From Trypanosoma brucei (Eukaryota), in contig CP000071.1 of the NCBI GenBank assembly GCA_000002445.1, positions 2,417,191-2,481,190 on the forward strand: DNA of 64,000 bases, read 5' to 3'. The notes under the pieces are model-generated. The model did not search any database. It saw nothing but the letters and a program-made list of their open reading frames with translations, and was not told where the DNA came from. The first letter of the stretch is position 1. Every line of letters starts with the position of its first letter. Position numbers and translations under genes: made by a program. This document shows, piece by piece, positions 14,000 through 53,065 of the stretch.

Positions 14000-14035
14000 G
14001 TTAGGTCACATTATTCCTTGCGTAGTGGAAGTGAA

Positions 14036-23657: not shown

Positions 23658-24414
23658 TATGATGATGATTTCTACGCGAGTATGTTCTTGGTGCACACAT
23701 ACTTTATTTTTTATCCATAGGTATTGCTTGTGTATATCCACATGCGCAAATATATATTTATATATTTGTACCGTGTAATATTTAATGGGTTGTGATTTCT
23801 TTCATTTTCTTTGCAGTAGCAATATTTCTATGGATCTTCATCTTTCGGTTGCTCCCACATCTTGTCAGTGATTTATCACTATTATTACATTCTTTTGTGA
23901 AAATTATATATGTCGTTTCTTTATGATAACTGAATCCAGTTATTCATTTGTCGTACTCCCTTTTGTTTCCATTTTCCCCAAAAGGAGAGAGCACACACAA
24001 CGGTTGGCGTCCCTTTCCACACTTGTTGTTATTGTTATCATTATTATCGGGGTAAACTTAGCATTATTCCTCCCCTAGTGTCACTGCTGCTGTCAACTGG
24101 GTTATTGTTGTATCTCTTCTCTTTTGTCAGTCTTAGTGATTCAACTGTTGGAGGAAAAGATCAGGGGCAAGACGTTGTGGTAACGTGTAACGAGATCGGA
24201 TATCTGTGTTTGAGTTACTGGTTCCGTTTTTTGTTTGCAGTACACATCTCTTTGTCTGTCGACTTCCTATTGACTTCCAGCACTTTGTATAGAGTTTGCT
24301 ACAGATGTATTTATTATCTTCTTTCTGGTATGTCTTTCAAAATCTCTTCGTTTTCACTTGGATGTTATATTACTATCTTGAAGCGTAAGGTTCGTATCAT
24401 AATACGCTACCAAT

Positions 24415-25800: not shown

Positions 25801-26550
25801 TATGATGATGATTTCTACGCGGGTATGTTCTTGGTGTACACATACTTTATTTCTAGGTATTGCTTGTGTATATCCACATGCGCAAATATTTATTTATATA
25901 TTTGTACCGTGTAATATTTAATGGGCTGTGATTTCTTTCATTTTCTTTGCAGTAGCAATATTTCTATGGATCTTCATCTTTCAGTTGCTCCCACATCTTG
26001 TCAGTGATTTATCACTATTATTACATTCTTTTGTGAAAATTATATATGTCGTTTCTTTATGATAACTGAATCCAGTTATTCCTTTGTCGTACTCCCTTTT
26101 GTTTCCATTTTCCCCAAAAGGAGAGAGCACACACAACGGTTGGCGTCCCTTTCCACACTTGTTGTTATTGTTATCATTATTATCGGGGTAAACTTAGCAT
26201 TATTCCTCCCCTAGTGTCACTGCTGCTGTCAACTGGGTTATTGTTGTATCTCTTCTCTTTTGTCAGTCTTAGTGATTCAACTGTTGGAGGAAAAGATCAG
26301 GGGCAAGACGTTGTGGTAACGTGTAACGAGATCGGATATCTGTGTTTGAGTTACTGGTTCCGTTTTTTGTTTGCAGTACACATCTCTTTGTTTGTCGACT
26401 TCCTATTGACTTCCAGCACTTTGTATAGAGTTTGCTGCAGATGTATTTATTATCTTCTTTCTGGTATGTCTTTCAAAATCTCTTCGTTTTCACTTGGATG
26501 TTATATTACTATCTTGAAGCGTAAGGTTCGTATCATAATACGCTACCAAT

Positions 26551-27933
26551 ATGACGAATCAATCCAGCGGGGGCAATGACAGGGGCCGTCGTGACACGGA
26601 TCCTTTTGCTCACGCTGGTGATGTAAAATTATCTTCTGACGCTATTGCACTTGATGTAACTCAGAAAGGCCAGGATGATGTGGTAAAGGAAGTGAAACCC
26701 TCGCTTTTCACCGTACTTCTTGAGAAGTTTATTCCCCATGGTGGATTGTGGTCCTGTGCCCTGAACCTGGCCTCTGCTACATTGGGTGCTGGCATTTGCT
26801 CACTTCCGACTGGTTTCAATTTGAGTGGGATTGTTATGTCCTGCATTTACCTTGTTTGCGTTGCGGTTGGCACGGTGTACTCTCTTAATCTTCTTGCAAA
26901 GGTTGCAGTGAAGACGGGATCGCGTAATTACGGAGAAGCTGCGCGGATGGTGATGGGTCCACTTGCTGGCTACTACGCGGCAGCGCTTATGATAGCGATG
27001 TGCTTTGGAGGTAACGTTGCTTACATCATCATTATTGGTATCATTTTGAGAGCTCTATTTAGTCGTGATGGTGTTCCGGAATATTTGAAATCAGAGAGTG
27101 GTAATCGGCTAATGACATCCATGGTGTGGTTGGTGATTATCTTGCCTATGTGCATTCCCAAGCAGGTTAATTCATTGCGCCACTTATCCTTTGTGGGTGT
27201 GATGTTTATTGTGTATTTTTCATGTGTTGTTATTGGCCATTCCATTAATAAGATCATTAATGAGGGTGTCGCTGATGGCATCGTGTACATGCGCACTGGA
27301 AATAGCGCTTTAGATGGCTTATCACTATTTCTCTTCTCATTTATCTGCCAGTCGAACGCATTTGAAATATTCCGTGAGATGAAACACCGGTCGCCGCAAC
27401 GCTTCACAATATATGGTACTGTCGGCATGTCAATGTGTGCTGTGCTTTACTTCCTGGTTGGTTTATTTGGTTATTTGGAGTTTGGAGGGGATGCCATTGA
27501 CACAGTGCTGTCTCTATATGATCCAGGTGAGAATGTTGCCGTTGCAATTGCGTACATTGGGGTTGCTGCCAAGGTTTGTGTTGCCTTTGCTTTGCACATC
27601 ATACCAATGCGTGATGCGCTGTACCATTGTACGGGTTGGCATGTTGATACTGTACCTTACTGGAAGCATTCCCTTATTGTGACGTCTATTACTTTAGCGG
27701 CTCTACTAGTGGGACTCTTCATTCCGAAAGCATCCACTGTTTTTGGTCTCGTTGGTGCTTTCTGTGGTGGTCATATCGGACTTGTGTTGCCTCCGTTGTT
27801 CTACATGTACTCAGGTGGCTTCACGAGGGAAAAAGTTGGTAATATTGATTTCTTTGGTACTTATCTCCTTCTTTTTGTTGGTGTTGTGGCTGTTGTACTT
27901 GGTACTGGATCGGCAGTATATTATGCTGTGTAG
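26551..27933 (+). CDS. Amino acid transporter (AAT family), mosaic B/A copy with a unique C-terminus, 460 aa.
   Basis: ATG at 26551. The N-terminal third is B-type. The rest is A-type from about 27070. It has a unique cluster at 27047-27062 (RALFS instead of KAVLN) and a unique terminus (VVLGTGSAVYYAV). Confidence 0.8.
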   Translation: MTNQSSGGNDRGRRDTDPFAHAGDVKLSSDAIALDVTQKGQDDVVKEVKPSLFTVLLEKFIPHGGLWSCALNLASATLGAGICSLPTGFNLSGIVMSCIYLVCVAVGTVYSLNLLAKVAVKTGSRNYGEAARMVMGPLAGYYAAALMIAMCFGGNVAYIIIIGIILRALFSRDGVPEYLKSESGNRLMTSMVWLVIILPMCIPKQVNSLRHLSFVGVMFIVYFSCVVIGHSINKIINEGVADGIVYMRTGNSALDGLSLFLFSFICQSNAFEIFREMKHRSPQRFTIYGTVGMSMCAVLYFLVGLFGYLEFGGDAIDTVLSLYDPGENVAVAIAYIGVAAKVCVAFALHIIPMRDALYHCTGWHVDTVPYWKHSLIVTSITLAALLVGLFIPKASTVFGLVGAFCGGHIGLVLPPLFYMYSGGFTREKVGNIDFFGTYLLLFVGVVAVVLGTGSAVYYAV

Positions 27934-28398
27934 TTGTTTTTTATGTTAATCGTTGAATATTGTGGGAAGGCACTAGTTTTTTTTTCCTGGATGTTGTGGG
28001 GACACTGTTTTTTATGAGGCCAAGTAATGTTTTTCTGTTTTTTAATATTTGTTTAAAAATTTTTTCTTTGTGGTTTTTATTTTTAATTTATTTTGTTGTT
28101 GCTGATTAATTGTTTAGTGTACGCCGCTTCGTGTTGTATCCTTATTTTGCTGTACTGTTAAGTGTAGTAGCTTGCTTTTGTTGTTACGGATGAATCGGGG
28201 TTGTATCGTCGCTTTGCGGGTAACCTCCGATGATTTTTTCTTCTTCCTTCTTTGCCCCAGCTGGATGCCGTACGCGACAATCTCGAAGGGAGTTTTCCTT
28301 TATTTAGAATATAAGATATTTCCCCCCTATTATTGCTGTCGTGTCGTTGCGGGTTTTAGCTTTATCGAAGCTTAATAATGTTTGTTGCTAACGGTGGG

Positions 28399-28612
28399 GT
28401 TCTATACATGCGCCCTAATTTCTGCCACACATTCTACTAATTTTGTTGTTTCGTTCCTTCTCTTATCCTTATTGCTTCAGGGTTTGTGTAGGTAAAGAAG
28501 TGTCATGACGTGATGTGTATTGGCTGCGTGTATTTGAAGCCAGACGCTGGTGAAGACTGACAACTTATAGTCGGTGAGAACTGTTAGTTTACTATACGTG
28601 TGGGTTAACGGT
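28399..28612 (+). repeat. Partial third copy of the array upstream element U, with no gene downstream.
   Basis: About 210 nt (gttctatacatgcgccctaatttctgccacacattctac...tgggttaac) are near-identical to 13581-13800 and 21823-22040. Similarity ends abruptly at about 28612. Confidence 0.85.
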
Positions 28613-29558
28613 AATTAAAGGAATTTCTTAAAAGTTTGTGTGTTTTTTTTTGTAATGGCACGTGGCCGGAGGTTTGATGCGAAGTGGTGTCTGGGGTTGG
28701 GCGCAGCTGTTGCAAAATGAGTTACAAGTTATTTCCTTGTCTGTAATTGCGTTGATTTATACTGGAATGGTGACCTGATGCTTTTGTGAGTTTATGATGT
28801 GTTTGGATGTGCTGCGTCTGTTGTTGGATCGCTGAAGTGTAGTTCCTTTAGTGGCGACGTTGAGGTTTGATTTGTGGTTATGTGGTCTCTTTTGTAGCTT
28901 TGTGGTGTTTATGTAGTTTTTTTTCATCTTTTAGCTCTTATTTGCTTCGAGATTCAGTGGTCAGTGAAGCAGTAGTTTTCGAATTTATATCTGTAGCCTT
29001 TCTGTGTCGCTGGGGTTATTGTTTTTATAGTTGAGTTGGATGGTTGTTGTTGTTGCAAGTTTGTGATTAATTGAGTTACATGTTCTCTAGGATCTTATTG
29101 AGAGATATTTAAAGGTTAGTTCGTGCTCTTAATTTAGAGTAAATGAAGATTATGGGGATTGTCTAGTGGCTTTTCAGTGCGTCATACAGCATTTACATAA
29201 TCGGCCGTCTGCTTATCTTTTTTTTTTTTGTGTGTGTGTGGTAGAACCTAATGGAGATATTATTTTTTGCACATTGGTTTTGTGACTTTAGTTTTGGATC
29301 ATCATGCGAGGTATCCCTCCATATTTAGTTGTTTCTTATTATTGCCATTTGCTGTGTGCTTGTCCTCACATCGTTAAGCCATGGATTTGTTATCTGCCGT
29401 TGTCGATTGTGATTTTGTTGAAAGCAGGTGCGTTATTGCTTCCAATCCATTTCTCTTTTTTTCCCTCATCCGTTTCAATGACACACACGTAAGGGATACA
29501 TATTAGTCCCGTTTGTCTTACTTTTGTTCCTCCCTTCTCACCTTTGCAGCTCACTTTT

Positions 29559-32381
29559 ATGTCTCACAAGCGGGTGGCTCGGCAGCAGCTGCCGATGCCG
29601 TGTTATACATCCACGGGAATGACAGGGATATGTGCCACGTCTCCGACACCCGCAACCCTCCCACTCGATGCGCTGCAACGTATCAGTAGCTTGCGGCAGT
29701 CACTCAGTAGTGTTGTCGCGTCACAAGCGCCTTCACTGGACCGCCCCGATACGCTCAGCTTACATCTACTACAGAATAGTGGCGTGTCCAAGGAGAGTAC
29801 AGTCATGTTTTTGCTCACCTCGTCCCAGCGGCGGATGAAGGAGCTTCTGAATGAGAACCACAGACTTGAACTCCTCTGCATTAAGCAGGAAGACACCATC
29901 AAGGAAATACGAGCTGAGATGTCGATAAACAAGAGGCATCAACATGCAACTGTTGCGGATGATGTGGTCGCCGAAAAGCCTGCCACAAGTTGCGTTCGGT
30001 CCACTCCCTTTGGAGCTCGCCGAATGGGTTTGAGGGATAGAACAGACCGCGGATCTAAGAATGAAGAGCTTGAAAGCCCAGGAAGTTTCATTGGGGCGTT
30101 CCGGAGTTCATCTATCGCTGCAGAGTTGGATGATGTGGTACAGCAACTTGTGAGTACCGCCATCGCATTGTTTCCAGAGCTGGAGGTACGTATGGAGTCC
30201 GCCTGTCACAATGGCGCTGACGAGTGGAGCACCGCTCGCGACATACTTTACTTCATTGAAAGCCACCTTGAAGAGTGGAGCGGCTGCGCATCTCGAGAAA
30301 ATGTTAGCTTTAGGGAGACAAGCATGTTGCTGTCACGGGTCCTTACATGTATAGACACGGACCAGCGGGAGTGGTGTGAGTGTCTTTTCGACATCGCGTA
30401 TAGACTTCAGGCGGCTTGGAGGGGACAAAAGCACGCTATGGAAAGGAGGGATGCCCTCATCTGCAAGCTCGAGGACGATGTCAAGTCGCTCGCCACGGAG
30501 TTATCTGATGCGGTGGAGGTGCGCATGCAATGTGAGTGTCGGTGCGCGGAGTTGGAGGAGACACTTTCACGTATGATGGATAAACGTGCAGTACACGATG
30601 GCAGTGTGCAAAGCTTGCAAGAAGAGCGTAGAATAGTGCGTGATGAGGCCAATTCTCCCTTGGCGTTAGCTGACCAGGAGGGTATCACCGTTATCGAGGC
30701 CTCTGGCGTAAAGCGGGACGTGCCGGGAATGAGCGATGGGACCATGCCCAAGATGTCTGAGGATTCCCTCCGGAGAGCTGTAGTGGAGCACGATGCGGAA
30801 GCGCTGCGACTCTCGTTGGATCGCATCACCAAGGAGCGGGATGAGCTGCGGGCGCAGCTCAGAGTAGTGAATGATGCGTTAGATGAAGCGGAGCTGCGTG
30901 TGAAAGTTGTGGGGACGGAGCGGGAGATGCTTCAATCTGAAGTGGGAGAGTTAAAGTATTGCGGTGGCATGCTAACAGTCGGCTCCACGGCTGCGCCACA
31001 GCCATCGCTAAGCTCGACAAGTGAAGCAATGAGGCCGTGGTGCGGACCACTTCTTTCCCGTGGCTGTGACCATGATCTCGCTGAAGGTGGTGATGCTGCT
31101 TCGAATGTTTCTATTACCGGTCTCTTACACGTGATTAGCGATACAACCGTTGATATTTTCTCGGTGGCGCATGAGCATAGTAGTTTGAGGTCTCCAGGGC
31201 TGCTTTTCCACGTTGGCTGCGCCATTGCTCTGGACTCTGGGGCCTTCAACAACATGCCAAAACCGGATTTATCCTTAACTGCGTGGAAGCGACTACTGCT
31301 TCACTTTCAGAATGGGTTTGTGGATGTCCCCTTCCATAACGCCGATCGTGCAGCGGACAGTTTGCAGTTCTTCTATAGTCTTCTGTTCCATTCGGGAATG
31401 GTGGAGCACATGGCTGATGTGGAAATCATTGCTTCCATTACGTCTGCATTATGTGCTATGTACGTTTATGTCACTCCTTCAAGTGAGGGGTGCAGGTCAT
31501 TAGATGTTTACTCGAACAGTTGTGCTGGTGGCAGCTCGGATTCTTGTGAACCTCTGCTACTGGAACATAGCTGTAGTTATGAAACCATCTGTCGGCTGAT
31601 GGAGCGCAGCCGGTTTGACTTCGCGGCGCTTTGGGAAGCGGAGGATCGTGCACTTCTTTTCCAGACGATGAAGGCCCTTCTGCTACCACAGGTGTCGTTG
31701 TACCAACTGGAGAGTCTCATGTACACTAGTGGAATTGAGGCGGTCAGCAACATTTCTTCACGACTGCATGACCCACCGGTTCGCCATCAGCTCATTCGGT
31801 TGCTCGTTGCACTTGCCCACCATGCCTTTACTATGCGCAGTGCTTCCGTGAACAAGTACTGGGCAAATGAGAGGTTTAGTTTATACCAACACCAGATGCG
31901 CTTCAGAAATGAGTTTGGCGAGGAGAGTATTGAGGTTCCATACAATATGAGAGCGGTTGCGGAAGCGCAGTTGTTGTTGATCAGTACTACTGTACTTCCA
32001 CTGTGCGAAGCTGTGGTTGGTGTGTTTCCTAGATTGCAACCGTGCTTAGTAGCTCTTCGAGGGAATTTGCACATGTGGACATTATGTGGATCTAACGGCG
32101 GCAGCACGTCTCCCTCCTCCATCGCATCAGTCCTTGAGCAGGTGACAACACCCTCAACATCCGAAGAGAAACTTCCGCCCGGTGCCGCCAATTTCAAGCT
32201 TGTTTCATCGGAGGAAATAAAGCGTGGCTCCCTTGTGGTGGATACCGGTGGATTCATATCAATGCAGGAGGAGATATCGGCTCTTTACAAGGAGAATGCA
32301 GTGCTCCGTGACATGCTGCAGAAACTTTTTCATGAGATGGATTCGGCCCGACAACATGTGAGGGTCGTGGGGGATGAATAA
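29559..32381 (+). CDS. Hypothetical protein (about 940 aa) with coiled-coil segments.
   Basis: The track start at 29544 is TTG and the first ATG is at 29559 (MSHKRVARQQLPMP...). It is a long ORF ending TAA at 32379-32381. Coiled-coil stretches occur around aa 100-130 and 400-470. Confidence 0.55.
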   Translation: MSHKRVARQQLPMPCYTSTGMTGICATSPTPATLPLDALQRISSLRQSLSSVVASQAPSLDRPDTLSLHLLQNSGVSKESTVMFLLTSSQRRMKELLNENHRLELLCIKQEDTIKEIRAEMSINKRHQHATVADDVVAEKPATSCVRSTPFGARRMGLRDRTDRGSKNEELESPGSFIGAFRSSSIAAELDDVVQQLVSTAIALFPELEVRMESACHNGADEWSTARDILYFIESHLEEWSGCASRENVSFRETSMLLSRVLTCIDTDQREWCECLFDIAYRLQAAWRGQKHAMERRDALICKLEDDVKSLATELSDAVEVRMQCECRCAELEETLSRMMDKRAVHDGSVQSLQEERRIVRDEANSPLALADQEGITVIEASGVKRDVPGMSDGTMPKMSEDSLRRAVVEHDAEALRLSLDRITKERDELRAQLRVVNDALDEAELRVKVVGTEREMLQSEVGELKYCGGMLTVGSTAAPQPSLSSTSEAMRPWCGPLLSRGCDHDLAEGGDAASNVSITGLLHVISDTTVDIFSVAHEHSSLRSPGLLFHVGCAIALDSGAFNNMPKPDLSLTAWKRLLLHFQNGFVDVPFHNADRAADSLQFFYSLLFHSGMVEHMADVEIIASITSALCAMYVYVTPSSEGCRSLDVYSNSCAGGSSDSCEPLLLEHSCSYETICRLMERSRFDFAALWEAEDRALLFQTMKALLLPQVSLYQLESLMYTSGIEAVSNISSRLHDPPVRHQLIRLLVALAHHAFTMRSASVNKYWANERFSLYQHQMRFRNEFGEESIEVPYNMRAVAEAQLLLISTTVLPLCEAVVGVFPRLQPCLVALRGNLHMWTLCGSNGGSTSPSSIASVLEQVTTPSTSEEKLPPGAANFKLVSSEEIKRGSLVVDTGGFISMQEEISALYKENAVLRDMLQKLFHEMDSARQHVRVVGDE

Positions 32382-35284: not shown

Positions 35285-36154
35285 AGTGATATTTGAATGC
35301 TTTTGCATTTCACTATTTTTATTTTTGTTTTGTTTTGTGTTTTTTTTTTTCATTTGGTAGTCATTTCGGGCTTATGTTTATTTATTTGTAACGCCCTGCT
35401 CATTTCGTTGAGTTTACCCCCCGTTACACTGGATTGTCGTTTCCCTTCAATTTCGTTTTTCACTCTTATTCGTCGTGTAACTTTTGCTACTTTACTAATG
35501 ATTATTCTCGCTTCAGTTTGATGCTGTCCGTAAACAATGTTTGTCATTTTTGTTATTATTGTTGTTGTTATGTTTATACGTTTAGGTTGCAATGGAAAAT
35601 GCAGCAATGATACAACCGATAGCATGTGCCTTGCAGAGTTGAGTGCCAACCATTTTTCGAGGTTCAACGCCTTCCCCCCTCTTTTTGTTACTTTCTCTCC
35701 GTTAGTATTTTGTTTCTCTCTCCCTTTTTTTAAACTGCTACGAGGTTACCATCTGCAATCGTTGTATTACTACTATATATATATATACATTTAAAATGTA
35801 CAACAGCGTAGGGAAGAAAAGAGAGAGAGGAACTAAAACAACAAAAAAAATATGTAGAGTGTATCGGAATAGAAACGAAAGAAAGAAGCACAAAAAAAGA
35901 AAAAAGAAACCCGTCGCCATATAAATGATAAAAAGGCGTAAATAAACGAACAAATAATCAAAGGGATTTGTTTATGTATTTTAATTGTCCAATTGTTTTA
36001 TTTTCCATCTCACCACCTTTAGATCCTTTTTTCTTTTTCTTTTTTTCTTCTTCTATGATATTTGTTTCATTTACTGCAGGTGAGGTTTCTGTTAGTAATT
36101 GGTGATTTCAGCCAGCGACCAACTAAATCAGACCCTAAGCTGTTATTGGACCTA

Positions 36155-37570
36155 ATGAGTAATGTCCGTGGAAATATAACCCCCGCCGTTGTTTATGCTT
36201 CCAATGAGCCGAATGCTCTTAATGCCTCGGATGATGGCATTAAAAACTATGAGGCCTACGAAGACATTCAATCAAACAATTCAGAATCTAAATTTGCTCC
36301 ATTTTCCAAACTGAGCAAAAAAATTGCCGCCGTCATTCCTCCTGGAGGGATTTTTGCCAGCGCCTTTAACATCGCGGCCACGACGTTGGGCGCCGGCATC
36401 TTTGGTTTGCCGTCAACCGCCAATGGAAGCGGACTTGTGATGGGAATATTATATCTCGTCATAATTAATTGCATGACCATATATTCCATGTATAATCTCG
36501 CCCTTGCAGCCGAACGTTCTAAAGCACTCACATATGAAGGCGTTACATTTGTGGTGTTGGGGCGCTGGGCTGCATATGCCATCGCTGCTGTTCGAGCATT
36601 TGATGGCTTTACGAGTTGTATTGCCTACGTGATTTCAGTGGGAGATATTTTCTCTTCTATTTTGAAGGGAACCGATGCACCTGAGTTCTGGAAGGGAAAT
36701 ACGGGCAACCGACTTTTGACCGCGCTTCTATGGCTCTGTTGTATGCTTCCACTTGTGATACCGCGACATGTGGATTCACTTCGTCATGTTTCCACCTGTG
36801 CCGTTACTTTCATGGTGTATTTTGTCATTGTGATTGTTGTGCACTCGTGTCTAAATGGGCTTCCGGAGAATATTAAGGATGTTAGTGTTGGAAAGAGTGA
36901 TACAGCTGCTATCATTCTCTTTAATAGCGGGAATGCAGCTGTTGAAGGATTGGGAGTATTTATGTTCTCATACACGTGCCAGGACACGGCGTATGAAATA
37001 TATATGGACATGAAGGATCGCTCCGTGCGTAAGTTCGTTATTTCATCCGCTATCGCGATGTGTATGTGTACCGTGTTGTATATACTCACCGTATTTTTCG
37101 GTTACATGGACTTTGGCCGTGATGTTACCGGTTCAATTTTGCTCATGTACGATCCCGTGAATGAACCTGCGGTGATGGTTGGTATGATTGGTGTGCTTGT
37201 GAAGCTGATCGCCTCATATGCGCTGCTCGCTATGGCGTGTCGTAATGCGTTATACAGCATTGCAGGAAAGAATGCGGATGTATTGCCCTTTTGGAAACAT
37301 TGTGCCTCAGTTGTAACCTTATCTGTAGCGGCACTGGTTTTGGGTCTCTTCATCCCAAAGGTTAATACGGTTCTTGGTTTTGCTGGTTCCATTACTGGTG
37401 GCTCACTTGGTTATATTTTCCCTTCGCTACTTCTTATGTACTCGGGTGGCTTCACATGGCAACGCGTTGGGCCTTTTCATTATCTCGTAGCGTACGGGTT
37501 GTTAATTTCAGGTGTTGTCGGCGTTGTTTTTGGTACCGGTGCCACCATTTGGGGCACAATTGTTGGCTAA
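36155..37570 (+). CDS. Amino acid transporter (AAT family), divergent paralog, 471 aa.
   Basis: The track start at 36062 is TTG and the first ATG is at 36155 (MSNVRGNITP...). Motifs: IPPGGIFASAFNIAATTLGAGIFGLP and LLLMYSGGFTWQRVGPFHY. It has about 11 hydrophobic segments. Confidence 0.8.
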   Translation: MSNVRGNITPAVVYASNEPNALNASDDGIKNYEAYEDIQSNNSESKFAPFSKLSKKIAAVIPPGGIFASAFNIAATTLGAGIFGLPSTANGSGLVMGILYLVIINCMTIYSMYNLALAAERSKALTYEGVTFVVLGRWAAYAIAAVRAFDGFTSCIAYVISVGDIFSSILKGTDAPEFWKGNTGNRLLTALLWLCCMLPLVIPRHVDSLRHVSTCAVTFMVYFVIVIVVHSCLNGLPENIKDVSVGKSDTAAIILFNSGNAAVEGLGVFMFSYTCQDTAYEIYMDMKDRSVRKFVISSAIAMCMCTVLYILTVFFGYMDFGRDVTGSILLMYDPVNEPAVMVGMIGVLVKLIASYALLAMACRNALYSIAGKNADVLPFWKHCASVVTLSVAALVLGLFIPKVNTVLGFAGSITGGSLGYIFPSLLLMYSGGFTWQRVGPFHYLVAYGLLISGVVGVVFGTGATIWGTIVG

Positions 37571-39382
37571 AACTGAGCAAAGTAAAGTAAAAAATAAAGT
37601 AATGTGAGAGATCATATAGCTCTCGGTATTTTAATTGTTGTTGTTGTTGTTTTCCCCCCTTTTCTTTTCTGATTGTAATTTTTCATCTTTGACTTCCTTT
37701 TTTTTTTTTGAGTGCAATTAAGTCGAGGCAACAGTTAAAAAACAAAACAAAACGAAAAGAAGAAATGATATGCCCGTCTATTACTAAAGAAAAACAAACT
37801 AACTAAAACTTATTAAGCACAAATGAATTAACAGGAGGAGGAGGAGGAAGAAGAGATGTTGAACGACATCAGGTTGTAATGGTTGTTTCGATCCGATGCA
37901 CTTTAAAGCAAGAAAAATTTCCCCTTTTTTTAAAAAAAAAAGAAAAAAGAAACAACAATATTCTCAAAGATCAGAAGAGAGAAAAATTAAAAAAGAAGAA
38001 GCAAAAACAACAACAACAACAACAGCAACAACGAAGTGGTGAATAGAAGAAAGAAAGAAAGAAAAAAAAACTAAAACGTCTAATTATTTATTTTATTGTG
38101 AGGCATATCGACTTTATGAAATGAAAAAATTGTTTTTCACTGTCAAAGGAATTACAAGAAAAAGAAGTAGAAGACAAGCAAAACGGTTTTTAGAACGCAT
38201 TCGACACTAGGGAAAAAGGCAAAATTAGGAAAAGTTTGGTTATTAAACTTTTTTTTTTCAGTAATAAAATACAATATAATTCTATCTTATTTTTTTTTTC
38301 AATTTTTGTTTTCCTTAACCTCATTTAGCAAGTAGTTGCAGCTACCAGTGCAAATAATGCAATTTCTTTTTTTTCTTTTTCTCTTTCTCTTTTTGTATGT
38401 GCGTGTTCTTTCCTTCTTTTTTTTTCGTTTTAATTTTTTTTTTTTACTATTTCCCCACTGCGTCACGGTATTTGCCCCGCATGAGTTCCTCTTAAACACG
38501 CCTTTATTATTCATGTGAGTGCAGGAAATATAAAAAGAGGAGGAAAAGAAAAAAAAAAGAGGAGGATTTGGGGATGAGGGCGGCAGGACTTTAACGATAT
38601 TAATATATTTATTTATGGGTCACAATTTCCTCGGCACTTCAGTACTTTCAATGCAAACAATTGTGATGACTCCACACGCATTTGTGAATAATTACTCTCC
38701 ATCCTCGAACATGCGGTGCTTCATGTTGCTAAACAGAAGCCACCAAATAATTTAAAAAAAAAGTAAAGAGTAAAAAAGGGGGAAAAAGAAACATTATTTA
38801 TTTTTCAGAGTTCTCTTTTTTATTTTTCTTCTTCTTTTTAAAGCCATCATTTCACGCTGTTAAAAAGGTAAAAAAAAAATATGCACATGGCGGTCAAAGT
38901 ACGCATTCCTCCAAGACTCAAAATGGGTGAAAGGTTAGCTTGAAACTGTGAGCTGCAGCTTCCACTGATGGAAGGAACCGCTTCAAAAAAAAAAAAGAAA
39001 AAAAGGGAGACAACCGTAACATAACGAAGGTTTCCGCACTTATATATTCCGGTGTAGGTTCAAATGCAAGTTTTTTTTTTTTGTATCCAATTGAAATAAA
39101 TGATACGGTACTTTGGACCTTTTATGCCGGCTGCGGTGTAACCCTTTATTGCATTAGTGGTGCTGACGTCCTCCACTTTGCCCTACAGAGGGAATGTCGC
39201 TTTGTTTTGTTTTGTTACACTTACCACATAACCATCATCACCGTCACCACCGGTATTTTTTGCATGCTGTCACATTATTATCATTATTATTATTATTATC
39301 ATTATTATTATTATTATTTCCGTTATTCCTTTTAATTTCTTTTTGTTTTATTGGTTGTGGAATTTTACAAGGGCCTTTGAAG

Positions 39383-39407
39383 CACACAACACACACACAC
39401 ACACACA
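39383..39407. repeat. (CA)n microsatellite in the 5' region of the AAT gene at 39427. An (ATT)n tract lies just upstream at 39266-39322.
   Basis: Direct reading gives acacacacacacacacacaca. Confidence 0.9.
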
Positions 39408-39426
39408 AGGAGCGCGTGAAGGAGTG

Positions 39427-40842
39427 ATGGACAGATCTGGCAGTCAATCCGCAGCATCAGCGGCGTCGGAACTTGCTGACAGTCGGGGTTTTGTGGGGCC
39501 AATATCGGATGCCCATGACCACGGAAATACTGACGAGAAAAATACCTCAAAAGCAAAGGATTCAAATGGTTTCTTCTCGAAGGTGAGTTTATGCATCGCC
39601 ACTGTTTTACCTCCAGGCGGCATTGCGGCGAGTGCTTTCAACATGGCCTCAACAACTCTTGGCGGCGGTATTATTGGGATGCCAGCAGCAACCAACAGCA
39701 GTGGACTTGTTATGGGATTATTTTATCTCATGCTCATTTCCTCCGTAACCGTTTTTACAATGCACAACCTTTCCATTGCAGCGGAGCGCACCAACACCCA
39801 CACGTTTGAGGAGGTGACTCGTGTGCTTCTTGGCCGTGGGGCTGCATATATTCTCGCTGCTATCCGAGCATTCCTTGGGTTTAGTGCCTGTGTTGCTTTT
39901 GTTATATCTTTGGGGGATATTATGTCTTCTATTCTAAATGGCACTAATGCACCGGATTTTTGGAAAGAAAAATCAGGTAACCGCGTCTTGACGGTAATAG
40001 TTTGGGCATGTTGTATGCTTCCACTTGTGATACCGCGACATGTGGATTCACTTCGTCATGTTTCCACCTGTGCCGTTACTTTCATGGTGTATTTTGTCAT
40101 TGTGATTGTTGTGCACTCGTGTCTAAATGGGCTTCCGGAGAATATTAAGAGCGTTAGTGTTGGAAAGAGTGATACAGCTGAAATTATCCTTTTCAACACC
40201 GGAAACAAGGCAATTGAAGGATTGGGAGTATTTATGTTTGCCTTTATTTCGCAAGTTACAGCATATGAGGTCTATGTGGACATGAAGGATCGCTCCGTGC
40301 GTAAGTTTGTTATCGCAGCCACCGTAGCCAATGCACTTTGTTTTGTTTTGTACGCTCTAACGGCCTTTTTCGGTTACATGGACTTTGGCCGTGATGTTAC
40401 CGATTCAATTTTGCTCATGTACGATCCCGTGAATGAACCCGAAATGATGGTTGCAATGGTTGGCATATTGGTGAAGTTGTGTGTATCGTATGCACTGCTT
40501 GCCATGGCACTTCGCAATTCATTGTACAGCATTGTTGGAGTAACTGCGGATAAGCTGCCTTTTTGGAAGCATTGCGTTACAGTTTTGGTCTTGTCTGGTA
40601 TTATTCTCCTTTTAGGGCTATTCATCCCAAAGATCAATACAGTATTCGGTTTTGCTGGTTCCATTACTGGTGGCTCACTTGGTTTTATTTTTCCCGCGCT
40701 GCTTGTGATGTATTCGGGTGACTTCACATGGCAGAAGGTGGGTCCTGCATATTACATTGCAACTTACTTACTTTTGGCAGGCGGCGTGTTTGTCATCGTA
40801 TTTGGCACCGGTGCCACCATTTGGGGCGCTGCTGTGGGTTGA
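39427..40842 (+). CDS. Amino acid transporter (AAT family), divergent paralog, 471 aa.
   Basis: The track start at 39343 is TTG and the first ATG is at 39427 (MDRSGSQSAASAA...). Motifs: LPPGGIAASAFNMASTTLGGGIIGMP and LLVMYSGDFTWQKVGPAYY. Its central region is nucleotide-identical to the 36155 gene over a long tract. Confidence 0.8.
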   Translation: MDRSGSQSAASAASELADSRGFVGPISDAHDHGNTDEKNTSKAKDSNGFFSKVSLCIATVLPPGGIAASAFNMASTTLGGGIIGMPAATNSSGLVMGLFYLMLISSVTVFTMHNLSIAAERTNTHTFEEVTRVLLGRGAAYILAAIRAFLGFSACVAFVISLGDIMSSILNGTNAPDFWKEKSGNRVLTVIVWACCMLPLVIPRHVDSLRHVSTCAVTFMVYFVIVIVVHSCLNGLPENIKSVSVGKSDTAEIILFNTGNKAIEGLGVFMFAFISQVTAYEVYVDMKDRSVRKFVIAATVANALCFVLYALTAFFGYMDFGRDVTDSILLMYDPVNEPEMMVAMVGILVKLCVSYALLAMALRNSLYSIVGVTADKLPFWKHCVTVLVLSGIILLLGLFIPKINTVFGFAGSITGGSLGFIFPALLVMYSGDFTWQKVGPAYYIATYLLLAGGVFVIVFGTGATIWGAAVG

Positions 40843-42898
40843 GCCAAAGCCGTACGAGCAAACCGCTTTTTATTTTTATTTTTATTATTTTTATTATTAT
40901 TTTTCGATCATCCCCTCATTTGTGTTTCCTCTGCACCGCTTATTCATTTATTTTCCTTGTTTTATTTCTTCTTCTTTTCGTATTATGACGGCTCCAGTCG
41001 ATATATGCAATGCACTGTGGTGTGTATGTAAGTTTTAAATATGATATTGTGTTAATTATATATGCTCATTTATGGTTGATATAAAAGTGATTGTAGGAAA
41101 CATAATTAATAAAATGTGGTAGTTGTTCAGTTATTTTTAACAAGATACCTTCGATCGCACGTGTACGTCCCCTCCCAAAAAAAAGTAGTGTTTCAAGACG
41201 GCTTAAATTTTGTTTGTTTGTTTGTTGATCACTTCTTTGTTTTACCGTTATTATTATTATTATTATTTTCCCTCTCGCTTTGTCGCATCTTTCAGTTTGT
41301 TGTAATTTATCTTTTTTTTTCTTATTTCGTTACTTTACCTCCTCATTTTATATTGTTTACAGACATGAAAAAAAAAGATATTATGTTTCTTGTCTGCTAA
41401 TAATAATAGAAAGGGGAGGAATAAGCTGTTATCTGCAGGTCGTCCTTTTTTATAAATTTTATAAATTTTTTCTTCCACTTACCTTTTTAAAAAAAATTTT
41501 CATTTCTTTTTCTTTCTCCTTTCAGATTTATTTTCCTTTTTATTTTATTATTTAGCAAGTGAGTGCGATTGTAAAGTTTTTACAAACGTGCGCGCACGGA
41601 TGTGTGCGTCTGGGAGTCATTCCACCTCCTTTCCGTCTGTTGCAGTTATTTTACCGCTTCACTTTTAACTTTCTTCCTTTGTTTTCCTCCCTATTTTATT
41701 TTGTTATATTTTAACTCAATTTAATTGTCTTTCCTTTTTTATCTTTTTCATTTTTTTCCATTTTATTTTGTTTCGTCTTTTCCCTCTTATTTGTTGTATT
41801 TATGATTGTTACGTATAAGTACATACACACGTGCGCATTTGTCTCAATAAATATATACATATTTGTTTATTTTTATATTTGCGGGTGCGCTTGTATATAT
41901 GTACCCCTGATTTTATTTATAGATGGCAGTGAAGGAGGGGCCAACACATTTATTTGTTTTTTTTTAAATTCCTTTTTTCTTTTATTTTTCCTTTATTTTA
42001 TTTCCTTTCTCTCTAAGTGGTAACTCCCTCTTTACTGTTTTTTTTCTTTTTTCTCTTCCTCTTCTTTTAACTGACTTTAATTGGTTACTACCACGCTTCA
42101 ACTAACACAAGACTGTTTCTTTTTATTTTTTCCTTTAATTATGTCATTACCACTCACTATGAAAATATTAATATTCCTCAGTATCTTTTCACCTCATGTC
42201 ATCTCATCTCATCATTTCTTTTTTTTTTGATTTACTTCTCTTTTAAATACTTTAAAGGAAGTTGAAGAAAAGGTTAAATATGTTCACTTAACAAATGGTC
42301 GGAACTCCGCGCGTACTGGAAAAAAAAAATTCTTTAGGAAGATGATGCGTTACGACCACCGCTGTGTAGTGTTTCCACTCTTTGAGAAACTTCTTTCCTC
42401 ACTTTTTTTTTTCCTCAGAGGATATACGCTAAAGTTTAATGATATGTTGCTGTGCCCTTAAAAAAACTCCACAAGTTCTGTTGTCAGTCTTTTTTAATAA
42501 ATATAAGAATAATAATATATGAGTTAAATGAACGTATGCCACCTTCTTGTTTCTTTTTTTTTTCTTTCCCCTTTCGTTTTTGATGTCTTTAATGCCACTT
42601 AAGTTTTGCGGTGTGTTGTCACTCAGCATATGTGTACCATCCTGAAATGCTAAAATGGTGAAATGTTAACGCACGGTTGCCGCAAATGGTGGTGATGCCG
42701 CCTTTATTAATTACATGCGGGGTGATTTGTTGCAAGCGCGCACGTGAAGTTGTCTTTTTAAACATATATTTGACTTGTGGTTATTATATTTCTGCTTTAT
42801 TTCATTATATATATATATATATATATGTATATTAGCATGTGCGACACTCTTATTTTCTATTCTCCTTATACTTTTCGTCATAAGTAACAATCAATAAA

Positions 42899-44344
42899 AT
42901 GAAGAAAGAATCCGTTCCTTCCAAATCAGAAAACACAACGGACTTGCAACCGGAAGGTGTTGATATGCCCGGTGAGCCTCTTGATGTGATCGGTCGTGCC
43001 TTTTCAAATCGTCAACCCAAACATATCGGGCAGGGACTTGCGGATGCCGTCAGAAATGTTGCGGTAGGACTTGGAGTAGGAATAAGTAGTTTTATTGCAC
43101 TTCCAATTGCTGGTGGTAAACGAGAAGGTGCCACAGGTGTTGCTAAAGGAATTGGATTTGGACTTCTCGGGCTTGCAGGTGGTGCCGCTGCCGGTTTGGT
43201 GACGGGTGCCAGACAGTTGGGTCGTGGAGTTGTCAACACAAAAGCGGCTGTTGAGGAAACCATACGAAGGGAACGGTATTGGTGCAGTATAACTGGAGGT
43301 TGGATTGAAGTACGTCTAAATGAGATGTTGGCCGACATTCCCGTAACGGATGATGACATTTATTGTAAGGCACGTGAAGAATACCGTAAAGTCAGTTCGT
43401 CATCATGGGATGGCGCGGCATCTCCATCTGGAAGTGAAGGCAACGACCCCAGTGAGGAAGGTTGTGAAGGTTCATGCGGAAAGGAAGATTACTACAGTCT
43501 AATTGGTGTAGAGAGAACAGCAACAACATCTCAAATACGTGCGGCTTTCCACCGCAAGGCATTGACGTTGCATCCAGATAAAAATACGGGCGATGCGGAG
43601 GCTACTCAGCGCTTTCAGGCCATACTGGAGGCTTATAATGTGTTGAGTAATGACGCACAGCGCTCCGAATATGATGCACGCGGATCTGTAGATATCAACG
43701 CGGGAGAAGGCGGGTTAACTTCTCCAATTGAACAGTCTCTTGGCGCCACGCAATTGGAGCCTTTCATTGGTCGCGTGGAGTGGGCGGTTCATCTCACTCC
43801 ATATGTATATTTTGACAGCGAATTAAGAAAAGAGCTGAAGAAACGGAGGGTTCTGCGTTTGGCCCAAAACCTCGTGCGGTTTGTGGATGGCGACGAGTCG
43901 ACGCTCGAATCCGTGCGACCGTTAATTATCGACGCCGTTTCCACACGAGGTGGCGCGAGACTTATGCCAGTGGTGGCGCAACAATACGCCGCGGCTGCAC
44001 GGCAGCATTTGACGAGCTCTTCCCTTTTGCGCGAAGTGGACAACTTCGGTACGTCAAAATTAGCCTTTTTAGGTGGCGTGGCGGATGCAACAGTGGCATG
44101 TTTAACGACGGCGGTTAAAGCTGCGCGGAAGCGTCTGGATGGAGATGAATTCCTTGACACAGTGTTAGCGCTGTGTGAGTGCGATGTACAGAAAAATGTT
44201 TTGCGCGCGGCCCGCCTTCTTTTTTATGATTTATCAGCATCTGCTGAGCAACGCAATACGCGGGCATATAACTTGTTGAAGCTTAGCAATATGATCAAAG
44301 ATATTTGCCTGTCATGTTCCAGTGTGGTAATTGAAGCACAATAA
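42899..44344 (+). CDS. DnaJ (J-domain) protein, 481 aa. It has an N-terminal Gly-rich hydrophobic segment and a central J-domain.
   Basis: ATG at 42899. The J-domain reads DYYSLIGVERTATTSQIRAAFHRKALTLHPDKNTGDAEATQRFQAILEAYNVLSNDAQRSEYD, with the canonical HPD tripeptide. The N-terminus (GLLGLAGGAAAGLVTGA) is a glycine-zipper-like hydrophobic segment. Confidence 0.85.
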   Translation: MKKESVPSKSENTTDLQPEGVDMPGEPLDVIGRAFSNRQPKHIGQGLADAVRNVAVGLGVGISSFIALPIAGGKREGATGVAKGIGFGLLGLAGGAAAGLVTGARQLGRGVVNTKAAVEETIRRERYWCSITGGWIEVRLNEMLADIPVTDDDIYCKAREEYRKVSSSSWDGAASPSGSEGNDPSEEGCEGSCGKEDYYSLIGVERTATTSQIRAAFHRKALTLHPDKNTGDAEATQRFQAILEAYNVLSNDAQRSEYDARGSVDINAGEGGLTSPIEQSLGATQLEPFIGRVEWAVHLTPYVYFDSELRKELKKRRVLRLAQNLVRFVDGDESTLESVRPLIIDAVSTRGGARLMPVVAQQYAAAARQHLTSSSLLREVDNFGTSKLAFLGGVADATVACLTTAVKAARKRLDGDEFLDTVLALCECDVQKNVLRAARLLFYDLSASAEQRNTRAYNLLKLSNMIKDICLSCSSVVIEAQ

Positions 44345-53005: not shown

Positions 53006-53065
53006 NNNNNNNNNNNNNNNNNNNNNNNNNNNNNNNNNNNNNNNNNNNNNNNNNNNNNNNNNNNN
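53006..53065. other. Assembly gap (a run of 60 N).
   Basis: Direct reading. It is flanked by A-rich and (AAGAAT)n low-complexity sequence, 262 nt upstream of the CRAL-TRIO gene start. Confidence 1.

What the first reader, a model, noticed from the sequence alone, without database searches (positions are those of the whole stretch)
36737..36877. 141-nt perfectly identical tract shared by two otherwise diverged transporter paralogs (36155 and 39427 genes)
The two downstream AAT genes are clearly diverged over most of their length. They have different N-termini and many synonymous and non-synonymous differences. Yet 36737-36877 is base-for-base identical to 40011-40151 (CCMLPLVIPRHVDSLRHVSTCAVTFMVYFVIVIVVHSCLNGLPENIK). 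Further short identical islands follow at 37003-37031/40283-40311, 37098-37165/40371-40438 and 37376-37415/40654-40693. Such islands embedded in diverged genes point to recent ectopic gene conversion across the 3.3 kb separating the paralogs. Strong purifying selection on a nucleotide-level element such as an internal RNA structure is a less likely alternative.
Basis: seen in the sequence. Interest (0 to 1): 0.6.

Follow-up and report, generated by a model that had tools for sequence, protein, structure and literature searches.

The report
Gene-conversion patch between neighbouring transporter paralogs
Two neighbouring but long-diverged amino-acid transporter genes of Trypanosoma brucei share a 141-base stretch that is identical letter for letter because one gene recently copied it from the other; this process is well known in the parasite's gene arrays but had not been listed for this gene pair.

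Summary
It lies inside two Aa_trans genes that are otherwise 69% identical. These genes are T. brucei AAT10.1 (ornithine transporter) and AAT10.2 (branched-chain amino-acid transporter). The window looks like strain TREU927, chromosome 8.

Synonymous divergence is 0 in the tract (0 of 34 sites) and about 1.46 outside it. No shuffle came near 141 nt (maximum 46-59).

Nucleotide-level constraint is excluded:
- The same segment differs at 28 of 141 sites (dS 0.95) from the chromosome-4 paralogous pair (AAT2).
- That pair has its own 257-nt identical tract over the same region.
- The three T. congolense AAT10 proteins are identical to each other there but carry five species-specific residues.
- The RNA fold is unremarkable (z = -0.5) and there is no Rfam hit.

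The tract is present in three independent assemblies. A synonymous SNP (36847/40119) is G in both paralogs here and A in both paralogs of DAL972 and T. equiperdum, so conversion is recent or ongoing.

The tract encodes the end of TM4, the following loop and TM5, away from the type-specific TM1/TM3/TM6 residues.

Verdict: short-tract non-allelic gene conversion, recurrent at this segment. It is a new instance of a known process and of modest interest.

The parts
36155..37570 (+). AAT10.1 coding sequence (471 aa; Tb927.8.8290-type ornithine transporter). The true ATG start lies inside the mechanical ORF 36062-37570.
   Evidence: Pfam Aa_trans E=7.6e-42. The protein is identical to P0055 = TREU927 AAZ13586.1 / DAL972 CBH13919.1. 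Function is taken from PMC13524880 and PMC8094907.
39427..40842 (+). AAT10.2 coding sequence (471 aa; Tb927.8.8300, branched-chain amino-acid transporter)
   Evidence: Pfam Aa_trans E=9e-40. The protein is identical to P0004 = TREU927 AAZ13587.1. Function is taken from PMC13524880.
36737..36877 (+). Conversion tract, copy in AAT10.1 (141 nt, aa 195-241: end of TM4, loop, TM5)
   Evidence: Exact identity to 40009-40149. dS = 0. Permutation tests. Helix mapping from the AF2 model.
40009..40149 (+). Conversion tract, copy in AAT10.2
   Evidence: Exact identity to 36737-36877.
36881..36908 (+). 28-nt extension of the tract (partner 40153-40180). It is separated from the main tract by the 3-nt GAT/AGC codon difference. 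It is also identical to the chr4 AAT2 10.1-like gene.
   Evidence: P about 0.01 for AAT10.1/10.2; P about 0.001 for AAT10.2/AAT2a.
37094..37167 (+). Second island (partner 40366-40439): 74 nt with one mismatch at 37131/40403 in this window, and a perfect 74-nt match in DAL972 and T. equiperdum
   Evidence: P about 0.003 for the first half alone.
37376..37412 (+). Third island (partner 40648-40684), 37 nt identical, in TM10
   Evidence: P about 0.001.
37535..37555 (+). Short 21-nt island near the 3' end (partner 40807-40827)
   Evidence: P about 0.01.
37005..37035 (+). 31-nt identical stretch (partner 40277-40307) encoding DMKDRSVRKF. It is not distinguishable from conservation.
   Evidence: It spans only 4 variable sites, global P about 1.

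Best explanation
The tract is the footprint of short-tract, non-allelic (interlocus) gene conversion. It occurred between two ancient tandem paralogs that lie 3,272 bp apart on the same strand of a polycistronic unit.

Inferred mechanism. A break or stalled fork inside one copy was repaired by RAD51-type homologous recombination (synthesis-dependent strand annealing). The neighbouring paralog served as the template, on the same chromatid, the sister or the homologue. About 140-170 nt were copied without crossover. The flanks are about 30% diverged, so heteroduplex extension is rejected by mismatch repair and the tract stays short. Once a segment has been homogenised it offers perfect homology for the next event, so the same segment is converted again and again.

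Selection on substrate specificity removes conversions that overwrite the TM1/TM3/TM6 residues. These residues distinguish the ornithine carrier AAT10.1 from the branched-chain carrier AAT10.2. The TM4-loop-TM5 scaffold module is interchangeable, so conversions there are tolerated.

Shown: the identity, the drop in dS, the patch-like mosaic, the locus- and species-specific versions, presence in three genomes, and the co-varying SNP.

Inferred: the molecular pathway, the self-reinforcing hotspot, and the filtering by selection. The direction is only tentatively AAT10.1 to AAT10.2.
For: 1. The 141-nt exact run sits in genes that are 69% identical, far beyond every shuffle.

2. dS is 0 in the tract (0 of 34.3 synonymous sites) and 1.46 in the rest of the core. 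pS is 0.70 immediately 5' and 0.60 immediately 3'.

3. Both flanks keep paralog-specific sequence. In the four-gene quartet analysis with the chr4 pair, the 5' core 36311-36631 has 41 'by type' sites against 8 'by locus'. The tract has 0 'by type' and 28 'by locus'.

4. The same segment compared with the chr4 AAT2 genes has dS 0.95 and 28/141 differences, so its synonymous sites are free to change.

5. Parallel homogenisation:
- DAL972 chr4 AAT2a and AAT2b are identical over 257 nt (L003 10478-10734 = 13312-13568). This corresponds to window 36632-36888.
- T. congolense TCIL3000_10_13950/13960/13970 are identical to each other over 54-77 aa in the same region.
- They carry five species-specific residues and no type-specific residue there (Fisher P = 0.006).

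6. The tract is present in the window (TREU927-like), in DAL972 (L001) and in T. equiperdum IVM-t1 (L002).

7. Synonymous SNP 36847/40119 is G in both paralogs of the window and A in both paralogs of DAL972 and T. equiperdum. My back-of-envelope chance of such a coincidence is about 0.002-0.01.

8. The extent of identity in the AAT2 pair differs between strains: 39 aa in TREU927 and 91 aa in DAL972. This indicates ongoing turnover.

9. Similarity between the two gene regions is confined to the CDS core, so this is not a recent duplication.

10. Literature:
- Partial gene conversion was found in 21 of 47 T. brucei tandem arrays (PMC1855330).
- It was found in AAT4, AAT7 and AAT9 (PMC1810246).
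- T. brucei recombination efficiency rises linearly from 50 to 200 bp of homology, is impeded by mismatches, and shows short-patch mismatch repair (PMC1904282).
Against: - No donor or recipient can be assigned firmly, because every available relative has itself been homogenised in this segment.
- The T. congolense evidence is at protein level only; no DNA was retrievable.
- The GAT/AGC triplet between 36877 and 36881 means that either two separate events or patchy mismatch repair must be invoked.
- GC3 gives no consistent signal of GC-biased conversion: 0.40 in the AAT10 tract and 0.66 in the AAT2 tract.
- Recurrence at one segment could reflect selection for identity rather than a purely mechanistic hotspot.
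- No direct observation of a conversion event is possible with these tools.
Confidence: 0.9

Rival explanations
1. Conversion supplies the identity, but natural selection actively favours keeping the TM4-loop-TM5 module identical between neighbouring paralogs. The reason could be a shared partner, an oligomer interface or a trafficking signal. This would explain why the same segment is homogenised in three independent pairs.
For: - The identical runs in the AAT10 pair, the chr4 AAT2 pair and the T. congolense trio all overlap on aa 207-241.
- Family-wide protein conservation of the tract is only slightly above average: 0.69 against 0.66, rank 59 of 364 windows. Extra sequence conservation alone therefore does not obviously mark it as the preferred recombination substrate.
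Against: - No partner or interface is known.
- A self-reinforcing mechanistic hotspot plus purifying selection on the flanks explains the same pattern without positive selection.
- T. equiperdum AAT10.1 tolerates Phe215 where AAT10.2 has Cys.
- Other islands (TM7-TM8 loop, TM10) are homogenised as well.
Confidence: 0.12
2. The tract is a nucleotide-level functional element held invariant by purifying selection in both genes, for example an RNA structure, a regulatory site or a small-RNA target.
For: There are zero synonymous differences in 34 synonymous sites. That is the only supporting observation.
Against: - The same segment differs at 18 synonymous and 10 non-synonymous positions from the chr4 AAT2 genes, dS 0.95.
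- It differs at 5 residues from T. congolense.
- The polymorphic site 36847 changes in both copies among strains.
- The RNA fold energy is ordinary: z = -0.50, and 55 of 200 shuffles fold as well.
- No Rfam family reaches E <= 1 in the tract.
Confidence: 0.02
3. The identity is an assembly or consensus-polishing artefact, in which reads from one paralog were used for both.
For: Repeated gene families are classic sites of collapse. The DAL972 assembly has fewer AAT2 and AAT9 copies than TREU927.
Against: - The tract occurs in three different assemblies that differ from one another by SNPs in and around it. The window is 98.2% identical to DAL972 over 21 kb, and T. equiperdum has one extra difference at 36798.
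- The tract is only 141 nt long and is flanked on both sides by unique, strongly diverged sequence. Sanger or long reads span it easily.
- Deposited TREU927, DAL972 and T. equiperdum proteins carry it.
Confidence: 0.02
4. Reciprocal exchange produced the patch, through two unequal crossovers or a double crossover between misaligned sisters, rather than non-reciprocal conversion.
For: Unequal crossing-over clearly operates in the neighbouring AAT9 array and in the AAT2 array, where copy number differs between strains.
Against: - A single unequal crossover changes copy number and gives one switch point. Here copy number is 2 in all three genomes and the patch has two switch points 141-172 nt apart.
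- Both copies carry the same sequence, which means non-reciprocal transfer.
- A double crossover within about 170 nt of 70%-identical DNA is far less likely than a non-crossover repair event.
Confidence: 0.03

Closest known systems
Partial gene conversion in T. brucei amino-acid transporter arrays AAT4, AAT7 and AAT9 (Jackson 2007, PMC1810246, Table 3; also 21 of 47 tandem arrays in PMC1855330)
   Same: - Same gene family, same genome and same chromosome; AAT9 is the five-gene array at 14018-27933 of this window.
- Same signature: 19-327-nt windows of identity inside otherwise distinct tandem duplicates, detected with GENECONV or SISCAN.
   Different: - AAT10 was not among the loci listed. The paper states that no further events were confirmed in other arrays.
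- The AAT10 pair is much more diverged (dS about 1.5) and functionally differentiated (ornithine versus branched-chain amino acids).
- The same segment is also homogenised in the chr4 paralogon and in T. congolense. That study did not describe this parallelism.
Concerted evolution of the AAT2 locus on chromosome 4 (Jackson 2007, PMC1810246, Table 2)
   Same: AAT2 is the paralogon partner of AAT10, with the same gene order: PDE-like gene, unknown ORF, 10.1-like AAT, 10.2-like AAT, DnaJ. Its copies cluster by species.
   Different: At AAT2 homogenisation is extensive: many islands, and dS 0.69 outside the main tract. At AAT10 it is confined to one 141-172-nt patch plus a few islands under 75 nt.
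Segmental (mosaic) gene conversion of VSG genes in T. brucei (e.g. PMC13233330; substrate rules in PMC1904282)
   Same: Short homology-driven, non-reciprocal patches are copied between diverged paralogs by the parasite's homologous-recombination machinery. Short-patch mismatch repair can give discontinuous tracts.
   Different: VSG mosaics diversify an expressed antigen under immune selection and use a large silent archive. Here two housekeeping-type core-chromosome genes are partly homogenised, with no evidence of adaptive diversification.
Classic interlocus conversion between functionally distinct tandem paralogs (from my own knowledge, not tested here): T. brucei phosphoglycerate kinase genes, human gamma-globin genes, red/green opsin genes, RHD/RHCE
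   Same: Converted patches with near-zero dS are embedded in diverged genes, and selection preserves the specificity-determining segments.
   Different: Different organisms and proteins. This is a resemblance only, and no sequence comparison was made.

Membership tests
Non-allelic (interlocus) gene conversion between tandem paralogs | A run of identity significantly longer than expected from the overall divergence of the pair | tested here: met
   The run is 141 nt, against a shuffle maximum of 46-59 nt. The run of identical silent codons is 54, against a maximum of 41 in 1e5 shuffles. The run of 28 variable sites has global P < 2e-4.
Non-allelic (interlocus) gene conversion between tandem paralogs | Synonymous divergence collapses inside the tract relative to the flanks | tested here: met
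   dS is 0 (0 of 34.3 sites) inside and 1.46 outside. It is 2.08 in the 5' core and 1.22 in the 3' core.
Non-allelic (interlocus) gene conversion between tandem paralogs | An internal patch with paralog-specific sequence retained on both sides and copy number unchanged, i.e. non-crossover | tested here: met
   The boundaries at 36736/36737 and 36877-36908 are sharp. There are two genes at the locus in all three genomes. Intergenic regions are unrelated.
Non-allelic (interlocus) gene conversion between tandem paralogs | Phylogenetic incongruence: the tract groups genes by genome or locus, while the flanks group them by orthology or type | tested here: met
   At DNA level with the chr4 paralogon, the 5' core has 41 by-type sites against 8 by-locus. 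The tract has 0 against 28. At protein level with T. congolense, aa 195-260 has 5 species-pattern and 0 type-pattern sites, against 9 and 21 elsewhere. Fisher P = 0.006.
Non-allelic (interlocus) gene conversion between tandem paralogs | Not an assembly artefact: the tract is reproducible in independent genomes | tested here: met
   The window, DAL972 (L001 10583-10723 = 13825-13965) and T. equiperdum (L002, 140/141) all show it.
Non-allelic (interlocus) gene conversion between tandem paralogs | Donor and recipient identified | tested here: inconclusive
   All relatives are themselves homogenised in the tract. The hints for AAT10.1 to AAT10.2 are weak:
- Cys196 is shared with T. congolense 10.1.
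- 36881-36908 equals the chr4 10.1-like gene but not the 10.2-like one.
Non-allelic (interlocus) gene conversion between tandem paralogs | Dependence on the homologous-recombination machinery (RAD51/BRCA2, restrained by MSH2/MLH1) | not testable with these tools
   This needs genetics. The only support is by analogy with PMC1904282.
AAAP / Aa_trans (PF01490) amino-acid transporters, LeuT fold | Significant match to the family profile over the full membrane domain | tested here: met
   PF01490 E = 7.6e-42 and 9e-40, covering profile positions 4-409 of 410.
AAAP / Aa_trans (PF01490) amino-acid transporters, LeuT fold | Eleven-helix LeuT-type fold with broken TM1 and TM6 | tested here: met
   The AF2 model has pLDDT 82 and pTM 0.80, with helices broken at 77-81 and 263-276. 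The best solved matches are LAX3, AUX1 and SLC38A9 (TM-score 0.6-0.8, E down to 3e-11).
Structured or regulatory RNA element inside the CDS | Nucleotide conservation across paralogous loci or species, including synonymous sites | tested here: not met
   dS is 0.95 against the chr4 genes, with 28/141 differences.
Structured or regulatory RNA element inside the CDS | Folding energy beyond shuffled controls, or a match to a known RNA family | tested here: not met
   z = -0.50. There is no Rfam hit in the tract at E <= 1.

The most novel reading that the evidence does not exclude
The TM4-loop-TM5 module of this trypanosome AAT subfamily is a long-lived conversion hotspot. The module is kept identical between neighbouring paralogs in three independent pairs: chr8 AAT10, chr4 AAT2 and T. 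congolense AAT10. It is kept identical because selection favours a shared module, for example a common oligomerisation, trafficking or regulatory interface. The specificity helices are meanwhile kept apart. This would be a modular 'concerted scaffold, divergent binding site' mode of transporter evolution.
Probability: 0.12. Interest if true: 0.5.

Novelty: new member of a known kind. Interest (0 to 1): 0.3.

Why it matters
Biologically, the tract is a natural domain swap. AAT10.1 transports ornithine and AAT10.2 transports branched-chain amino acids, yet both carry an identical TM4-loop-TM5. Substrate selectivity must therefore reside elsewhere. The type-specific residues cluster in TM1, TM3, TM6, TM7 and TM10. 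This narrows the search for specificity determinants in a parasite transporter family linked to eflornithine and suramin sensitivity (PMC13524880).

In evolutionary terms, conversion still acts between paralogs with dS of about 1.5. It acts repeatedly on the same segment in parallel lineages. This can mislead phylogenies of the AAT family and estimates of duplication age.

Practically, 141-172 nt of perfect identity is enough to cause several problems:
- RNAi cross-silencing.
- Ambiguous short-read or RNA-seq mapping.
- Non-unique peptides in proteomics of AAT10.1 and AAT10.2.
- Off-target integration of targeting constructs. T. brucei recombines efficiently on 50-200 bp of homology (PMC1904282).

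Tried and rejected
They fail. The true offset is 3272 nt.
- DNA for TREU927 and T. congolense orthologues. The exact-protein look-ups for P0004, P0060 and P0002 found nothing. T. congolense could therefore be used only at protein level.
- T. vivax as an outgroup. The loci of P0024 and P0023 (L004-L006) are not syntenic with AAT10, having no PDE-like or DnaJ neighbours, and their proteins are not identical in the tract. They were dropped.
- RNA-structure rival. Folding and Rfam were both negative.
- GC-biased gene conversion. GC3 is 0.40 in the AAT10 tract and 0.66 in the AAT2 tract, so there is no consistent signal.
- 'The tract is simply the most conserved part of the protein.' Family-wide conservation is 0.69 against a core mean of 0.66, rank 59 of 364 windows. 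Rejected as sufficient.
- Sequence search of the PDB. The only match is PAT1 (9v3t), and that alignment does not cover the tract. An AF2 model was used for the topology instead.
- Strain identity. I first assumed the window was DAL972 because the look-up returned that genome. Direct comparison shows 1.8% divergence, and the AAT10.2 protein matches TREU927 only. In some searches the labels 'Tbg10.1/10.2' therefore mean the window genes.
- Quartet 'by locus' counts outside the tract. They are confounded by conversion in the AAT2 pair. I did not use them to claim extra AAT10 tracts.
Full report
**What the window is.** The two genes are Aa_trans (PF01490) transporters. The product of gene 1 (36155-37570) is identical to the AAT10.1 protein of both T. 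b. brucei TREU927 and T. b. gambiense DAL972. The product of gene 2 (39427-40842) is identical to the TREU927 AAT10.2 protein only. The window is 98.2% identical to the DAL972 locus over 21 kb. It is therefore not DAL972 and is most likely TREU927 chromosome 8, genes Tb927.8.8290 and Tb927.8.8300. Upstream lies the five-gene AAT9 array (14018-27933). According to the literature, AAT10.1 transports ornithine. AAT10.2 is a selective, proton-coupled transporter of branched-chain amino acids that ornithine does not compete with (PMC13524880).

**The observation.** 36737-36877 is identical to 40009-40149 (141 nt). After a three-base difference (GAT/AGC) another 28 nt are identical, so 36737-36908 matches at 169/172. 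Further exact runs are:
- 36942-36966 (25 nt);
- 37005-37035 (31 nt);
- 37094-37130 and 37132-37167 (74 nt with one mismatch);
- 37376-37412 (37 nt);
- 37535-37555 (21 nt).

The coding sequences are 69% identical overall, and the N-terminal 50 or so codons cannot be aligned. Similarity between the two gene regions stops at the edges of the conserved CDS core, and the intergenic DNA is unrelated. These are old duplicates.

**Is it more than chance?** Yes.
- Shuffling the sites or codons of the core never gave a run longer than 46 or 59 nt in 10,000 trials.
- The analytic expectation for a run of 141 nt or more is 3.5e-17.
- Among degenerate codons encoding the same amino acid, 54.5% are identical outside the tract and 45 of 45 inside (P about 1e-12).
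- The run of identical silent codons is 54, against a maximum of 41 in 100,000 shuffles.
- A GENECONV-style test on sites variable among four paralogs gives a run of 28 variable sites, with a null maximum of 13.
- The islands at 37376-37412, 37094-37130, 36881-36908 and 37535-37555 reach P of about 0.001-0.01.
- The island at 37005-37035 does not.

**Conversion or constraint?** Nei-Gojobori estimates give dS = 0 in the tract (0 of 34.3 synonymous sites). This compares with 2.08 in the 5' core, 1.22 in the 3' core and 1.46 overall outside the tract. The decisive control is the paralogous locus on chromosome 4 (AAT2), fetched from DAL972 as L003. It has the same gene order: PDE-like gene, small ORF, a 10.1-like AAT, a 10.2-like AAT, DnaJ.

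Against either chr4 gene, the AAT10 tract differs at 28 of 141 positions (18 synonymous, 10 non-synonymous; dS 0.95). This is as diverged as the rest of the gene. Its synonymous sites are therefore not constrained. The two chr4 genes are in turn identical to each other over 257 nt (L003 10478-10734 = 13312-13568). This stretch corresponds to window 36632-36888 and so covers the same segment.

In the quartet formed by AAT10.1, AAT10.2 and the 10.1-like and 10.2-like AAT2 genes, the 5' core (36311-36631) has 41 sites grouping genes by type and 8 grouping them by locus. The tract has 0 and 28. This is the classic incongruence of concerted evolution.

**A second species.** The three T. congolense AAT10 proteins (TCIL3000_10_13950/60/70) are identical to one another over 54-77 residues in the same place (aa 184 or 207 to 260). 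They carry five residues there that differ from both T. brucei genes (positions 215, 218, 229, 233 and 250 in AAT10.1 numbering). No site in aa 195-260 groups proteins by type, whereas 21 do elsewhere (Fisher P = 0.006). Each locus or species has its own signature shared by both gene types:
- T. brucei AAT10: V206, H211, C215, L233, P237.
- T. brucei AAT2: Y211, F215, M233, S237, N242.
- T. congolense: I206, F215, S218, I229, M233, S242, D250.

T. congolense DNA could not be retrieved, so this step rests on protein sequence.

**Artefact?** The tract is present in three assemblies that differ by SNPs:
- In DAL972 it is again a perfect 141-nt match (L001 10583-10723 = 13825-13965).
- In T. equiperdum IVM-t1 (L002) it is 140/141. 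The single difference is 36798 G>T in AAT10.1, giving Cys215Phe.
- In DAL972 and T. equiperdum the island 37094-37167 is a perfect 74-nt match. The window's AAT10.2 has a private A at 40403, giving Asp326.

**How recent?** Among the three genomes AAT10.2 has only three polymorphic sites. One of them, the synonymous site 36847/40119 (TCG/TCA), lies in the tract. It shows the same alleles with the same strain distribution in both paralogs: G/G in the window, A/A in DAL972 and A/A in T. equiperdum. By my rough estimate, the chance of an independent identical hit is about 0.002-0.01. The simple reading is that a mutation in one copy was transferred to the other after these lineages separated. Zero differences in 141 nt also bounds the divergence since the last event to less than about 2% (Poisson, 95%; my calculation). 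At the chr4 locus the extent of identity differs between strains: 39 aa in TREU927 and 91 aa in DAL972. This again indicates continuing exchange.

**Other rivals.** The tract folds no better than shuffled sequence (minimum free energy -33 kcal/mol, z = -0.50). Nothing in Rfam matches it. Across 36 more distant family members the tract is only slightly more conserved than the core average (0.69 against 0.66; rank 59 of 364 windows). Protein constraint therefore does not explain even the 47/47 amino-acid identity. GC3 gives no consistent sign of GC-biased conversion.

**Where it sits in the protein.** An AlphaFold2 model (pLDDT 82, pTM 0.80) shows the 11-helix LeuT-type fold with broken TM1 (66-77/81-92) and broken TM6 (259-284). 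Its best solved matches are LAX3, AUX1 and SLC38A9. The tract (aa 195-241) covers the last turns of TM4 (182-201), the following loop and TM5 (209-242). The 28-nt extension reaches the first strand of the hairpin after TM5.

Residues that group by type in both T. brucei and T. congolense lie in TM1 (67, 91), before and in TM3 (129-171, ten sites), TM6 (272, 274, 284), TM7, TM10 and TM11. In LeuT-fold carriers the substrate site is formed by TM1, TM3, TM6 and TM8 (established knowledge). I therefore infer that conversions are tolerated in the TM4-TM5 scaffold and are removed by selection where they would blur the difference between ornithine and branched-chain amino-acid selectivity.

**Mechanism (inferred).** A lesion in one copy is repaired by homologous recombination using the neighbour 3.27 kb away as template, without crossover. 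In T. brucei, recombination efficiency rises linearly between 50 and 200 bp of homology. It is impeded by mismatches through mismatch repair, and it shows short-patch mismatch correction (PMC1904282). This fits three features of the tract:
- its length of about 140-170 nt, bounded by flanks that are 30% diverged;
- the isolated unconverted GAT/AGC codon;
- a self-reinforcing hotspot, in which a homogenised segment is the best substrate for the next event.

The direction is unresolved. Two weak hints favour AAT10.1 as donor:
- Cys196 is shared with T. congolense 10.1 against the family consensus Phe.
- 36881-36908 equals the chr4 10.1-like gene but not the 10.2-like gene.

**Comparison with what is known.** Partial gene conversion is documented in 21 of 47 T. 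brucei tandem arrays (PMC1855330). Within this family it is documented for AAT4, AAT7 and AAT9, with tracts of 19-327 nt. The same paper reports that no further events were confirmed in other arrays (PMC1810246). AAT10 is thus an unlisted instance of a known process. What is mildly new is the parallel homogenisation of one structural module in three paralog pairs whose members have different substrates.

**Verdict.** This is a new member of a known kind, and interest is about 0.3.

Noticed in passing
window 26133-47594 vs L001 (DAL972): The window is not the DAL972 genome that the exact-protein look-up returned. It is 98.2% identical to it over 21 kb. Its AAT10.2 protein matches only the TREU927 accession, so the source is most likely T. 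b. brucei TREU927 chromosome 8.
   Followed up: yes
window 37471 and 40743: The same synonymous Gly-codon third position is polymorphic in both paralogs, with the same strain partition (window versus DAL972 plus T. equiperdum). The bases differ: AAT10.1 GGG>GGA and AAT10.2 GGT>GGC. AAT10.2 has only three polymorphic sites in all, so this positional coincidence is unexpected. Transfer of an allele does not explain it.
   Followed up: partly
window 36798 (L002 6644): T. equiperdum AAT10.1 has TTT (Phe215) where the window and DAL972 AAT10.1, and every AAT10.2, have TGT (Cys). Phe is the state in AAT2, in T. congolense and in the family consensus. This is either a reversion or a copy that escaped the spread of the Cys allele.
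   Followed up: partly
window 40403: The window's AAT10.2 has a private non-synonymous change, GAT (Asp326). DAL972 and T. equiperdum have GGT (Gly), as AAT10.1 does. This change breaks what is a perfect 74-nt identity island (37094-37167) in the other two genomes.
   Followed up: yes
L003 10478-10734 and 13312-13568 (DAL972 chr4 AAT2 pair); proteins P0060/P0010, P0059/P0063: The chr4 paralogon pair has its own 257-nt identical tract plus several 64-75-nt islands. The extent of identity differs between strains: 39 aa in TREU927, 91 aa in DAL972, and a different 92-aa block (aa 305-396) as the longest run in T. equiperdum.
   Followed up: partly
window 36881-36908 and 36621-36651 vs L003: There are short exact identities across chromosomes. 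36881-36908 is identical in AAT10.1, AAT10.2 and the chr4 10.1-like gene. 36621-36651 of AAT10.1 is identical to the chr4 10.2-like gene (P about 0.0002). The first may be a retained type-specific sequence. The second is probably a 10.1-type sequence that conversion within the chr4 pair placed in the 10.2-like copy. Inter-chromosomal conversion was not excluded.
   Followed up: partly
window 13584-28701: The AAT9 array has five Aa_trans genes (14018-15418, 16176-17561, 22257-23657, 24415-25800, 26551-27933). It has a near-perfect 8,239-bp higher-order repeat, with 99-100% identity between 14115-15770 and 22354-24009. The last gene's 3' end (27580-27879) is 99% identical to copy 3 rather than to its own type. 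This matches the AAT9.3 to AAT9.5 conversion reported by Jackson 2007.
   Followed up: partly
window 53006-53065: A run of 60 N, probably an assembly gap, lies between ORFs 49221-51887 and 53273-54169.
   Followed up: no
window 29544-32381 and 42899-44344; L003 1-2325 and 15953-17440: The AAT10 pair is bracketed by a 945-aa protein with only a fragmentary PDEase_I match (E = 8e-9, 41 residues) and by a DnaJ-domain protein. The same bracket surrounds AAT2 on chr4, confirming the chr4/chr8 block duplication. In DAL972 the chr4 copy has extra genes (an ABC transporter and a TRM13-like gene) between the PDE-like gene and the AATs.
   Followed up: partly
window 39385-39409 and 37640-37660, 40860-40900: A (CA)n microsatellite lies immediately upstream of the AAT10.2 start. 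Long T-rich and pyrimidine tracts lie downstream of both genes. These are typical trypanosome trans-splicing and polyadenylation signal regions, and they are not shared between the two genes.
   Followed up: no
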